Source: Paraspadella gotoi
Lineage: Eukaryota; Animalia; Chaetognatha
Length of the DNA: 64,000 nt
Reading direction: 5' to 3'
Assembly (NCBI GenBank): GCA_051294375.1
Contig: CM119263.1
Span: forward strand, 30,802,053 to 30,866,052
Shown one piece after another: positions 22,328 through 31,347 of this stretch. The notes under the pieces are model-generated. The model did no database searches, was not told the DNA's origin, and saw only the letters and a program-made list of their open reading frames with translations. The position numbers and the translations under genes are program-made. How positions within the stretch are numbered: position 1 is the stretch's first letter; every line of letters begins with the position of its first letter.

Positions 22328-24453
22328 ATGGTAAGTAAAATCAAACAAAAATTTTATGACCTATCACTCTTATGCATTGAATTTTATATCACAAGATGTA
22401 CGTATGTCTATGTCAAATGATGTCATCTGATTTTTAAAAATGCCATTCGTTGTCCCATGACGTCATTTTATATCACATGATATCATTCCATGTCACATGA
22501 TGTCGTCCAATATCACCTGATGTCATCTGATATCACATGATGTTATCTCATGTCTCTTTTAAGATTTTCCCGCCAACGGCGATCATCATTTTTCTCTTCT
22601 ACGGATTTTCGTCGGTTCACGCTAAGGTGAATTCGTGATCACGCAAATTCGTTGTTTTGTTTTTATGTTTTGTTTATTTTGTATATTTATTTTGTTTAAT
22701 TCTTTTCTTAACGAATTCCATCTCTTTCCCCATCTTAATTCTTTTCTTAACGAATTCCATCTCTTTCCCCATCTTAATTCTTTTCTTAACGAATTCCATC
22801 TCTTTCCCCATCTTAATTCTTTTCTTAACGAATTCCATCTCTTTCCCCATCTTAATTCTTTTCTTAACGAATTCCATCTCTTTCCCCATCTTAATTCTTT
22901 TCTTAACGAATTCCATCTCTTTCCCCATCTTAATTCTTTTCTTAACGAATTCCATCTCTTTCCCCATCTTAATTCTTTTCTTAACGAATTCCATCTCTTT
23001 CCCCATCTTAATTCTTTTCTTAACGAATTCCATCTCTTTCCCCATCCTAATTCTTTTCTTAACGAATTCCATCTCTTTCCCCATCTTAATTCTTTTCTTA
23101 ACGAATTCCATCTCTTTCCCCATCTTTCCCCCATCTCGTCATTAGTCCACGTCTAAATGGATTCGCTTAGGTCTGCACGAGCACTGCAAGCACGGCGAGG
23201 TCTTTGCGGTGGACTCTTTGATCGCCGATCCATCCGTCGGCGCGGAATACCTCGTCAACGCCGTCGATCCTTACAATGACACTTGTCTAGGGATAGCGGC
23301 GGCGATGGACATGGCGCCTCTGGTGGAGATGCTGCTTAAACACGGCGCCGACGTCAATCACAGGTGGGTGGCGGCGGGTGAGAGCGGGGGAAGGCGGATG
23401 CTGGCGGGTGCAGCGGATGCAGGTGGGTGTAGCCGGGTGTAGGAGCGGGGCAGAGGACACCAGGAGGGCATCCAGTTGCCATTCACCCACAAGAATAGAC
23501 ACAGGCTGATTGATCCGCTCATGTCATGAAATTCATCATTAAATCCATCATTAATACTTCATTGAATCCGTCATTAAGTTAGATATTAAATCCATCATTA
23601 AATCCGTCATTGAATTTAAATCCGTCATTAAATCCGTCATTAAATCCGTCTTGAAATCTATCATTAAATCTGTCATTAAATCTATCATTAAATCTATCAT
23701 TAAATCTCCCGTAAAAATCCCACCCACTTTTCTTTTCTCCCTAAGAAACAATTGGAATCGTGTTCCGCTGCACAGAGTTGCAGCTAACGGCGCCGTCTCT
23801 GCCGGCGCTCTGCTCCTGGCGCGCCCTGGCGTTGAAGTCGACGCCGTAGACGAGGACGGGTCGACGCCGCTTCGTTGGAGCGCCGTCTATCTCGATCTTA
23901 AAAACGGGGGCAGACAACACGAAGTGGCTCGTGCTCTCATCGCTGCCGGAGCTTCCGTTAAAAAGGCTAAAAATGCGACTTTTTATGATTACGACTTTCA
24001 AGATCGAATCAGGACTAAGGAAATGAAGACGGCCATTTTAGAAGGGAAAAACGGTATGAAACAATGTTGCCCTTGTTCGCTCCAACAATACACAATGTAC
24101 CCTCAGTCGTGACCCGTTAGCTCATTGAGTAAAGCCATAAGCACCTGATCACGTAGTTCCGTGTTCAATGACAATCTGCCCTTCGGGAAGCGTTGGGACG
24201 GCCGTGAACTTCCTTGAGGGCGTAGCGTCCCCCGCCCCCCAGCCCTTTTCCAAACCCGGGAATCGTGCCGAATATCTTCTCAGAATTCTGCTGCAAAACG
24301 ATTTTCTTTTCAGAATTTTGCCGCAAGACAAAATGCTGCGAACCTCAAATGGGCGAACACATTACTTCTGTTGAAGGCGTCAATACGAAATGTCTTTCAA
24401 TGACGATCGGTGACTCTTTTGCGGATTGTTGTTTAAAAGGATATTTCTCGCAG
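22328..24453 (+). CDS. N-terminal part: signal peptide, 3-4 ankyrin repeats and Cys-rich segment
   Basis: MIFPPTAIIIFLFYGFSSVHA-K; NDTCLGIAAAMDMAPLVEMLLKHGADVNHR, NRVPLHRVAANG, DEDGSTPLRWSA; EFCRKTKCC...KC...DCC. Confidence 0.8.
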
Positions 24454-30400: not shown

Positions 30401-31347
30401 ATATCAGCCATCTTTGCCCTTACCCCGCTTCACACCTAGCCAGATCATTAACTTACCATCTCTCCTTTCCCAATTCTTTCCTTACCTCCCCCCCTCACCC
30501 CAAACCCATCTCCTCTCCTCCGATCAAGTACGAAGACAAGTCCGCCTTCCCTGGTCTCACTCTACTCAAGATCAACAAATTGGACAATCTGTCTCGAGTC
30601 GACGAGACTCTCCAGATGCGAGCAGACTTTGATCTTTTCGATCGCGTCCACAATTGGTTCGGTTTTGTTTGTCTCTTCGATTCTGTCGCTTCGATCTTTG
30701 TATTTGGATTCTTTTATTACGTCATGGATCCTTGGACGTTGAAGGTGAAAGATCTGTCTATCCATCTTTGGCTGTCTATCTGTCTGTTTATCTGTCTGTC
30801 TGTTTATCTATCTTTCTGGTTATATCTAATTGATTATCCATTTGTTTGTCTGCCAATAAATTTTTCTATCTGTCCGTTTGTCTCTCTGGATGTCTATTAA
30901 TTTGTCTGTCTGTCAGTCTGTCTATTTTTCTGTTTTTCTCTTTGTCTGTCTTTGCGCTATTTCAGTTAACAATATTGACATATTACTTTCATATTTGAAC
31001 ATGTATTCTCGCGATAACCCGTTAAAAAATGATAAATAATTATTATAATTTGAAAATTAATATGCAAATTAAGTTTCGAAACAAGGTTCCCGCAAAAAAA
31101 CTGATCCAGTCCTGGAATTGGATTCAACTCTTTTTGTTTTAAATTGTTTCTTTTCTCCCTGCAGTCGAATTTGGTTAAACTGAGCGAAGAGGAGGAAGAA
31201 GAATTAAAAACGATGAATTCCGAAACCAAATTTGATCAAAAAGAAGAAACAAAAAATAAAGAAAACAAATTTAGAAATTTGGCTTTTTTGATTAGAAACG
31301 TTTCGAGGATTTTGCCTCATATACAAAGAACGGAACAAGCTCAATAA
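22328..31347 (+). CDS. Signal peptide, ankyrin repeats, Cys-rich ectodomain, TM helix and XK-related (Xkr) multi-pass domain; ~928 aa if a single transcript
   Basis: Phase-consistent exons 22328-22330 (ATG), 22564-22626, 23146-23363, 23746-24053, 24314-24453, 25149-25295, 25786-26021, 26382-26513, 27012-27174, 27528-27839, 28326-28781, 28846-29055, 30529-30744, 31165-31347. The 24453>25149 join, which skips the stop-containing 24756-24878 segment, is inferred. Confidence 0.6.
22697..23125. repeat. 39-bp minisatellite, ~11 near-identical copies, in intron 2
   Basis: Unit aattcttttcttaacgaattccatctctttccccatctt; no spacers. Confidence 0.95.
23530..23707. repeat. 12-bp degenerate tandem repeat (aaatccgtcatt) in intron 3
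   Basis: About 14 imperfect units. Confidence 0.85.
24065..24250 (+). mobile_element. Diverged LTR fragment of the tRNA-containing TRIM family
   Basis: cagtcgtgacccgttagctcattgagtaaagccat matches LTR cagttgtgacccggtggctcattgagtaaagccat; downstream gacggccgt...ccttgagggcgt is also shared. Confidence 0.7.
25786..31347 (+). CDS. C-terminal part: single TM helix plus XK-related protein domain
   Basis: Xkr hallmark motifs LYLSDVISDWLAVFVY...FWSVVTL, LSFIEIFTEGIGQTILQMFV (cf. EAFLESAPQLxLQ) and FFYYVMDPW (cf. YYxxLHP). Confidence 0.8.
27925..28150 (+). repeat. Dispersed repeat family, with related copies at ~25355-25420, ~44597-44760 (minus) and ~53850-54010
   Basis: Shared blocks cacttcatt.ataggaaag...ctgggagtgaataaac...gagtcttgattgaaa and gtgatagaggc..t.aaccacca.agcctgtccaaagtc. 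Confidence 0.6.

What the first reader, a model, noticed from the sequence alone, without database searches (positions are those of the whole stretch)
22328..31347. Candidate receptor-like scramblase: extracellular ankyrin/Cys-rich ectodomain and extra TM helix fused to an XK-related domain
Seen: 14 phase-consistent exons giving a signal peptide (MIFPPTAIIIFLFYGFSSVHA), 3-4 ankyrin repeats, a Cys-rich region, a Val-rich TM helix followed by basic RTRKEKRR, then Xkr motifs (YLSDVISD, IEIFTEGIGQTILQ, YYVMDP). Established: Xkr proteins normally begin with a short cytosolic N-terminus, XKR8 needs a separate type I single-pass partner (basigin/neuroplastin), and ankyrin repeats are mostly intracellular. 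Inference: the protein carries its own type I ectodomain module with extracellular ankyrins, possibly a ligand-gated lipid scramblase. I do not recognise this architecture. Caveat: the fusion depends on the 24453>25149 splice.
Basis: partly seen in the sequence, partly recalled or inferred. Interest (0 to 1): 0.85.

Follow-up and report, generated by a model that had tools for sequence, protein, structure and literature searches.

The report
Scramblase with built-in ankyrin receptor head
This spliced gene joins ankyrin repeats, a likely remnant of an antibody-type (Ig) fold and one extra predicted membrane helix to an XKR-family membrane domain, so it likely makes a lipid-scrambling protein that carries its own basigin-like partner and a predicted outward-facing head, and an optional 76-base intron would cut that head loose.

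Summary
Real gene; unusual architecture; function untested. The 14-exon model is open for 928 aa. Spliced contigs of run X1 support 7 of 13 junctions, all that were testable, including the doubted 24453>25149. The weak spot lies elsewhere: a 76-nt GT-AG intron inside exon 7 (25837-25912) appears both spliced and retained. Splicing shifts the frame and leaves a 339-aa head without membrane anchor. The gene belongs to an unnamed family (13 proteins; family HMM E 1.4e-50) built as Cys-rich head, Ig, Ig, extra helix, XK-related domain. A predicted model of one relative matches XKR8, XKR4 and XKR9 (Z 22.1, 21.9, 19.4; next 12.7) and Ig folds. The retained segment aligns with the family's membrane-proximal Ig strands, so retention is likely the selected form. 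No relative found has ankyrins (0 of 25). Best reading: an XKR-fold scramblase with a basigin-like Ig-TM stalk fused in cis, likely pinned to helix 9 by a Cys337-Cys764 bond, carrying a swapped extracellular ankyrin head. Scrambling, docking and ligand gating are inferred, not shown.

The parts
22328..22330 (+). Exon 1, start codon only (predicted)
   Evidence: ATG followed by a strong GT donor; in-frame stops upstream; junction not tested by RNA
22564..22626 (+). Exon 2, predicted signal peptide (aa 2-21)
   Evidence: Hydrophobic window KD 1.77; X1 loose end reads into this exon
23146..23363 (+). Exon 3, ankyrin repeats 1 (degenerate) and 2; sequon N66
   Evidence: Pfam Ank_3 E 1.1e-5; X1 contig 1
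23746..24053 (+). Exon 4, ankyrin repeats 3 and 4; sequon N171
   Evidence: Pfam Ank E 1e-5; X1 joints
24314..24453 (+). Exon 5, Cys-rich module (6 Cys), unassigned
   Evidence: No Pfam hit at E<=1; no similarity to family ectodomains, 848 of 1000 shuffles score as high; X1 joints
25149..25295 (+). Exon 6, linker with 2 Cys, unassigned
   Evidence: Covered exactly by X1 contig 1
25786..26021 (+). Exon 7: likely Ig C-to-G strands (C297, C323, C337), extra helix TM0 (about 25939-26001, aa 345-365), basic flank
   Evidence: Family HMM aligns from aa 289; Ig2 profile, 1 of 2000 shuffles as high; KD peak 3.05
25837..25912 (+). 76-nt GT-AG exitron; removal shifts the frame to a stop at 26000-26002 (339-aa product)
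   Evidence: Spliced joint (contig depth 4.9) and retained contig 25807-25940 (depth 3.3) in X1; translation
26382..26513 (+). Exon 8: cytosolic linker and XKR helix 1 with D411 and D415
   Evidence: Both Asp 12 of 12 in the family; X1 joint 26021>26382
27012..27174 (+). Exon 9: XKR helix 2
   Evidence: Pfam XK-related E 0.0073; X1 loose end
27528..27839 (+). Exon 10: XKR helices 3-4 with E524 and E528
   Evidence: Pfam XK-related E 0.042; family HMM E 1.1e-5
28326..28781 (+). Exon 11: Cys-bearing extracellular hairpin (C584, C595, C610, C615) and three helices
   Evidence: Family HMM E 1.2e-16; model pLDDT 76.7
28846..29055 (+). Exon 12: penultimate membrane helix (helix-9 equivalent, inferred) followed by C764 and a second extracellular loop
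   Evidence: Family alignment, Cys 12 of 12
30529..30744 (+). Exon 13: end of loop and last membrane helix
   Evidence: Family alignment; KD 2.05
31165..31347 (+). Exon 14: charged cytosolic tail and stop
   Evidence: Model; not tested by RNA

Best explanation
This is one spliced gene whose intron-retaining mRNA would encode a 928-aa membrane protein with a predicted signal peptide, ankyrin repeats, a Cys-rich module, a likely Ig-fold remnant and an extra predicted membrane helix ahead of an XKR-family domain; it likely scrambles phospholipids, with the fused Ig-helix stalk predicted to do in cis what basigin does for XKR8 in trans. Steps: (1) shown: single transcription unit and splice pattern from exon 2 to exon 9; (2) shown by homology: membership in an Ig-Ig-TM-XK family whose predicted fold is XKR; (3) inferred: signal peptide plus TM0 put the ankyrin, Cys-rich and Ig parts outside and the XKR N-terminus inside, as in XKR8; (4) inferred from cysteine bookkeeping: C337 at the outer start of TM0 bonds to C764 at the outer end of the helix-9 equivalent, the place where basigin docks on XKR8; (5) inferred: D411, D415, E524 and E528 form the acidic lipid path; (6) inferred: the ankyrin head is a swapped binding module that places or regulates the scramblase; (7) inferred: splicing of the 76-nt exitron lowers full-length output by yielding a secreted head or a decay-prone mRNA. 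My odds: fusion protein made 0.85; TM0 at the basigin site 0.65; lipid scrambling 0.6; gating by a ligand of the head 0.25.
For: Open 928-aa frame. One 995-nt X1 contig joins exons 2-3-4-5-6-7a, so ankyrins and the first Ig-like strand of the family module lie on one contig; a 2253-nt contig joins exon 7 to 8 and 9. Family of 13 proteins, 11 of 13 above Pfam's XK-related cut-off; 12 of 13 have a hydrophobic segment 63-94 aa before the helix-1 Asp, the window 64 aa. Family HMM aligns window aa 289-892 as one domain, E 1.4e-50, across the 76-nt segment. Shuffles: aa 265-342 vs Ig2 profile 1 of 2000; exon 7a 5 of 1000, segment plus 6 aa 40 of 1000. Relative P0003 model (pLDDT 69, pTM 0.67): XKR8 Z 22.1 (rmsd 4.1, 302 of 358 aligned), XKR4 21.9, XKR9 19.4, next 12.7 among 48,161 chains; residues 121-189 match Ig domains at Z 6-8. 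Cys columns: family C173, C189 and C664 kept as C323, C337, C764; C412 and C486 lost together; Ig B-strand Cys lost while the invariant Trp became C297. PMC8500837: basigin's helix lies on XKR8 helix 9, engineered A207C-T305C cross-links, and D26, D30, E137, E141 are essential.
Against: No single contig spans ankyrins and XK domain; the link passes through the exitron bubble and a GTC-repeat break. The retained form rests on one 134-nt contig at depth 3.3 in one run of one study, not far above stray intronic pieces at depth about 2, so it could be unspliced pre-mRNA; the spliced form has the higher depth (4.9). The segment's own homology signal is modest (40 of 1000), and 817 of 4259 intronic 25-codon windows are stop-free. 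The window protein is only 20-27% identical to its relatives. The family Lys before the helix-4 glutamates (10 of 12) is Ser519 here; equivalents of XKR8 R183 and W45 were not mapped; the tail has no DxxD caspase motif. XKR9 did not scramble in liposomes and did not bind basigin (PMC8298096 passages), so the fold does not guarantee either property. The fold evidence comes from a relative, not from the window protein.
Confidence: 0.55

Rival explanations
1. The fusion is real but the XKR domain is not a scramblase; the protein is an adhesion or sensing receptor, and the XKR fold with its large extracellular cap serves as scaffold or carries some other solute.
For: About 200 aa of extra extracellular, Cys-bearing, beta-rich loops in the relative's model; 11-13% identity to solved XKRs; Ser519 in place of the family Lys; no caspase motif in the tail; XKR9 inactive in vitro.
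Against: The four acidic residues matching XKR8's essential set are kept (D411, D415 12 of 12; E524 10 of 12; E528 11 of 12) despite about 24% overall identity.
Confidence: 0.22
2. In this species the main product is the spliced form: a secreted 339-aa ankyrin/Cys-rich protein (with, at most, a free 532-aa XK domain from Met397), and the retained form is leftover pre-mRNA of a decaying fusion.
For: Spliced joint depth 4.9 vs retained 3.3; good acceptor, ranked 3 of 117 exon-internal AG sites, donor 5 of 139; an open 532-aa frame from Met397; Ser-rich runs are common in this genome's frames.
Against: The retained frame keeps family-invariant Cys at 323 and 337 and the family spacing to TM0; splicing leaves an odd cysteine count (11); the stop lies upstream of seven further junctions, which would usually trigger nonsense-mediated decay (recalled rule); reinitiation after a 339-codon frame is usually inefficient (recalled).
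Confidence: 0.15
3. Two neighbouring genes, an ankyrin gene and an XK gene, were joined by read-through or by the assembly graph.
For: No single record spans both parts; an unrelated ankyrin gene lies 1.6 kb downstream, so ankyrin genes are local.
Against: Contig 1 carries the ankyrin exons and exon 7a, which itself matches the family Ig strand (5 of 1000 shuffles); all joints are canonical and in frame; no separate start or signal peptide precedes the Ig-TM part in the modelled frame.
Confidence: 0.08

Closest known systems
Human XKR8-basigin complex (PDB 8XEJ, 7DCE; PMC8500837)
   Same: XKR fold (relative's model Z 22.1); acidic pairs on helices 1 and 4; an Ig-bearing single-pass element on the outside; basigin has two Ig domains, as do the relatives.
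   Different: Ig-helix element is fused into the same chain; no sequence evidence that it descends from basigin; large extracellular cap on the XKR domain; ankyrin and Cys-rich head; no DxxD caspase motif in the tail; docking site not tested.
XKR4 and XKR9 (PDB 9BOJ, 7P16)
   Same: Same fold (Z 21.9 and 19.4).
   Different: No ectodomain or extra N-terminal helix in the solved chains' matched range; XKR9 does not bind basigin.
Unnamed Ig-Ig-TM-XK family (P0003-P0015, ENA, no names or taxa shown)
   Same: Colinear from the membrane-proximal Ig through TM0 to the last helix (E 1.4e-50); shared cap cysteines.
   Different: Window protein has ankyrins (0 of 25 family sequences do), shows no match to the distal Ig domain, lacks two cap cysteines and sits on a very long branch.
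Exitron and soluble-receptor splicing (PMC10990081, PMC8461249; search listing and abstract start only)
   Same: An intron inside a coding exon whose removal shifts the frame and removes the membrane anchor.
   Different: Here it sits in a multi-pass XKR gene; regulation and product are untested.

Membership tests
XK-related (Pfam PF09815) | Whole-protein score above 24.8 bits | tested here: inconclusive
   Single exons give 15.8 and 13.3 bits; the whole protein was not scanned; 11 of 13 relatives pass
XK-related (Pfam PF09815) | XKR helical fold | tested here: met
   By proxy: relative P0003 model residues 243-781 match XKR8, XKR4, XKR9 at Z 22.1, 21.9, 19.4; window aligned to the family at E 1.4e-50
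XKR scramblases (XKR8 type) | Acidic path residues D26, D30, E137, E141 | tested here: met
   D411, D415, E524, E528 at matching helices and i+4 spacing; mapping inferred from spacing and helix order, residue list
XKR scramblases (XKR8 type) | Basic path residues K134 and R183, gate W45 | tested here: inconclusive
   Family Lys is Ser519 in the window; no residue-level alignment to XKR8 was obtained
XKR scramblases (XKR8 type) | Caspase-3 site in the C-terminal tail | tested here: not met
   Tail aa 869-928 has a single Asp and no DxxD motif (motif recalled)
XKR scramblases (XKR8 type) | Phospholipid scrambling activity | not testable with these tools
   Needs cell or liposome assay
Basigin/neuroplastin-like partner | Ig domain directly before a single type I helix | tested here: met
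   Relative: Ig matches at 121-189, helix 193-227; window keeps only the likely C-to-G strands
Basigin/neuroplastin-like partner | Helix packs on XKR helix 9 | not tested
Basigin/neuroplastin-like partner | Sequence homology to basigin | tested here: inconclusive
   Family profile found no basigin chain at E<=10 among 177,635 PDB sequences, nor any XKR chain, so the search was too weak to decide
Ankyrin repeat | Pfam Ank or Ank_3 above cut-off | tested here: met
   25.8 vs 22.3 and 26 vs 21.1 bits
Ankyrin repeat | Extracellular location (unusual) | tested here: inconclusive
   Hydrophobic N-terminus, TM0 with basic inner flank, sequons N66 and N171; no SignalP or experiment

The most novel reading that the evidence does not exclude
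A whole unrecognised class of receptor-scramblases: an expanded family in which variable extracellular heads (Cys-rich/Ig, or here ankyrin) sit on a conserved Ig-helix stalk disulfide-locked at the basigin site of an XKR domain, so that binding of an outside ligand, not caspase cleavage, triggers phosphatidylserine exposure, with an exitron that releases a soluble decoy head.
Probability: 0.22. Interest if true: 0.9.

Novelty: new variant of a known kind. Interest (0 to 1): 0.68.

Why it matters
XKR scramblases are known as multi-pass proteins switched on from inside by caspases or kinases, and XKR8 needs the Ig protein basigin or neuroplastin (PMC8500837). A natural single-chain Ig-helix-XKR family suggests that this partnership can be hard-wired and offers a one-polypeptide model for asking what the partner helix and Ig domain do. 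Swappable heads, including ankyrins on the outer side, raise a testable idea: scrambling controlled from outside the cell. None of the listings from nine literature searches describes such a fusion, but only titles and abstract starts were seen, subscription journals are largely missing, and automatic annotations may already record the architecture.

Tried and rejected
No whole genome was held, so paralogs in this species were not searched; the window holds no second family member. Word-based search with exon 10 found 0 of 40 candidates at E<=1. PDB sequence searches with exon 10 and with the family profile found no XKR or basigin chain. P0002 is a repeat-rich chance hit and was dropped. Exon 11 folded alone gave only generic helical matches, best Z 7.2: inconclusive. 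Atlas: no usable feature hit for whole P0004; XK-related clusters at 0.87, a lead only. The metagenome locus search could not run on the family alignment. Runs X2 and X3 laid 0 records: no evidence either way. No listed run is on record as RNA; X1 is judged RNA-derived from its spliced joints. Earlier-findings look-ups returned nothing. The tree places the window protein on a 9.9-long branch and cannot root or date the fusion. A candidate extra exon near 29616 was rejected: the family alignment needs no insert there. Exons 5-6 as a distal Ig remnant was rejected; a TNF-receptor-like look of exon 5 is a recalled resemblance without Pfam support. A possible caspase site in the cytosolic linker (Asp388) is not visibly conserved in the family alignment. 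Papers: PMC8500837 abstract, parts 1-2 of 9 and Discussion read; PMC8298096 12 of 21 passages; 10.64898/2026.01.07.698282 three passages, nothing relevant; PMC5620054 no occurrence of the four terms; no supplements were opened.
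Full report
Context. The window is an AT-rich (mostly 23-41% G+C per 2 kb), microsatellite-rich eukaryotic sequence with GT-AG introns; no whole genome is held. The organism was not identified; an animal is likely but rests only on weak neighbour hits.

Observation. After correcting my own boundary slips, 14 exons give an open frame of 928 aa with canonical splice sites. In order: a hydrophobic N-terminus resembling a signal peptide (aa 1-21), four ankyrin-like repeats (about aa 32-168; Pfam above cut-off in exons 3 and 4), a Cys-rich stretch, a strongly hydrophobic helix (aa 345-365, KD 3.05) followed by a basic cluster, and a multi-pass region with weak XK-related hits in exons 9 and 10.

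Transcript evidence. One public run (X1) holds 0.52 of the sampled words of 27012-29055, close to the exonic share of that stretch (1141 of 2044 bases). Its contigs cover exon 6 exactly. On 23140-26520, one 995-nt contig joins exons 3, 4, 5, 6 and the first 51 nt of exon 7 by GT..AG joints, with a loose end reading into exon 2; a 2253-nt contig joins exon 7 to exon 8 with a loose end reading into exon 9. The same call shows an unmodelled joint 25836>25913: a 76-nt GT-AG intron inside exon 7, present spliced (contig depth 4.9) and retained (134-nt contig, depth 3.3). Removal shifts the frame into a Ser-rich tail and a stop at 26000-26002, giving 339 aa without membrane anchor; a 532-aa frame from Met397 remains downstream. 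Contig depths are poor measures of level, this is one run of one study, and no single record spans ankyrins and XK domain.

Relatives. A full HMMER scan with exon 11 gave 3 proteins at E<=0.001; one was a repeat artefact, one a 168-aa fragment, one (P0003, 831 aa) an XK-related protein. P0003 retrieved 13 proteins and a profile search three more fragments, all unnamed ENA records on contigs long enough to hold each frame whole. Eleven of 13 pass Pfam's XK-related cut-off and none has an ankyrin hit; the window's ankyrin region matches 0 of 25 family sequences. Ten of the 13 carry a long N-terminal ectodomain, two begin at the extra helix and one begins at XKR helix 1; only P0012 and, weakly, P0023 show a signal-peptide-like start, so several may be incomplete at the 5' end. 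A family HMM aligns window aa 289-892 as one domain (E 1.4e-50), running through the 76-nt segment; the spliced product scores E 0.09. Identity to members is 20-27%.

Fold. AlphaFold2 on P0003 with 24 sequences (pLDDT 69.1, pTM 0.67) gives two beta domains (about 12-119 and 121-189), a helix 193-227, and a helical domain with two beta-rich insertions. Against 48,161 solved chains the top matches are XKR8 (Z 22.1, rmsd 4.1, 302 of 358), XKR4 (21.9) and XKR9 (19.4), next 12.7; the beta domains match Ig-superfamily chains (Foldseek; Z 6-8, middling). So the family is Ig-Ig-helix-XKR with an added extracellular cap. Exon 11 folded alone was uninformative.

Is the retained form the selected one? 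Residues 265-342 beat all but 1 of 2000 shuffles on the family's second-Ig profile; the spliced product is matched by 13 of 2000. Summed pairwise scores: exon 7a 5 of 1000 shuffles, the 76-nt segment plus six residues 40 of 1000, exons 5-6 848 of 1000. The segment carries C323 in the column of the invariant F-strand Cys (10 of 10), C337 follows in another invariant column, and the distance from TM0 to the helix-1 Asp is 64 aa against 63-94 in relatives. The Ig B-strand Cys is lost while the invariant Trp is replaced by C297, which would allow a C-to-F strand bond as recalled for CD4 domain 2. Against: 19% of intronic windows of that length are stop-free by chance (817 of 4259), and the splice sites are among the better exon-internal ones. 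I put the odds that the fusion protein is made at 0.85.

Mechanism. In XKR8-basigin, basigin's helix lies on helix 9, cysteines engineered at basigin A207 and XKR8 T305 cross-link, and D26, D30, K134, E137, E141 and R183 are needed for scrambling (PMC8500837). The window keeps D411, D415, E524 and E528 at matching places (mapping inferred). In the family, extracellular cysteines outside the Ig pairs are P0003 C189, C412, C486, C488, C499, C519, C524 and C664; the window lost C412 and C486 together, and the next four fall on a hairpin. That leaves C189 and C664 (window C337 and C764): one at the outer start of TM0, one just after the penultimate membrane helix. A bond between them would be a natural version of the engineered basigin-XKR8 cross-link. 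This is bookkeeping, not a measured contact. The ankyrin and Cys-rich head would then be a module swapped onto a conserved stalk; whether it gates scrambling is open. The tail lacks a DxxD motif, so caspase activation is not indicated. XKR9 shows that the fold guarantees neither in vitro scrambling nor basigin binding (PMC8298096 passages).

Novelty and verdict. The XKR domain, ankyrin repeats, Ig folds and exitrons are each known. Their union, and the underlying Ig-Ig-helix-XKR family, did not appear in the listings of nine literature searches or in this scan's earlier notes; that is limited evidence. I rate it a new variant of a known kind, interest 0.68: the architecture is well supported by RNA contigs, homology and predicted structure, while function, docking and ligand control remain inferred.

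Noticed in passing
P0003 about 410-526 and 664-741; window aa about 545-625 and 761-830: The family adds about 200 aa of Cys-bearing, beta-rich extracellular loops to the XKR domain, predicted to form a cap that was not matched to any solved fold.
   Followed up: partly
window 32965-35955 (+): Separate multi-exon ankyrin gene with an acidic tail and no signal peptide seen, 1.6 kb downstream.
   Followed up: partly
window 143-1330 and 7256-7546 (+): Pieces of a likely cyclic-nucleotide-binding ion channel gene (cNMP_binding E 0.0046, Ion_trans_2 E 0.45).
   Followed up: no
window 40600-43640 (+): Long low-complexity frames with a weak nuclear-receptor ligand-binding-domain hit (E 0.009); no DNA-binding domain was looked for.
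   Followed up: no
window 25347-25402, similar stretch near 28085-28140: Short dispersed element with very deep cover in run X1 (second copy seen).
   Followed up: no
window about 22690-23130: Minisatellite of about eleven 38-base units in intron 2.
   Followed up: no
P0011: Family member whose called frame starts at XKR helix 1 and ends in a long Thr/Pro-rich repeat tail; it may be truncated or a head-less form.
   Followed up: no
window 24314-24453: Exon 5 and the N-terminal Cys-rich parts of P0012 and P0015 loosely recall TNF-receptor cysteine-rich repeats (recalled resemblance; no Pfam hit).
   Followed up: no
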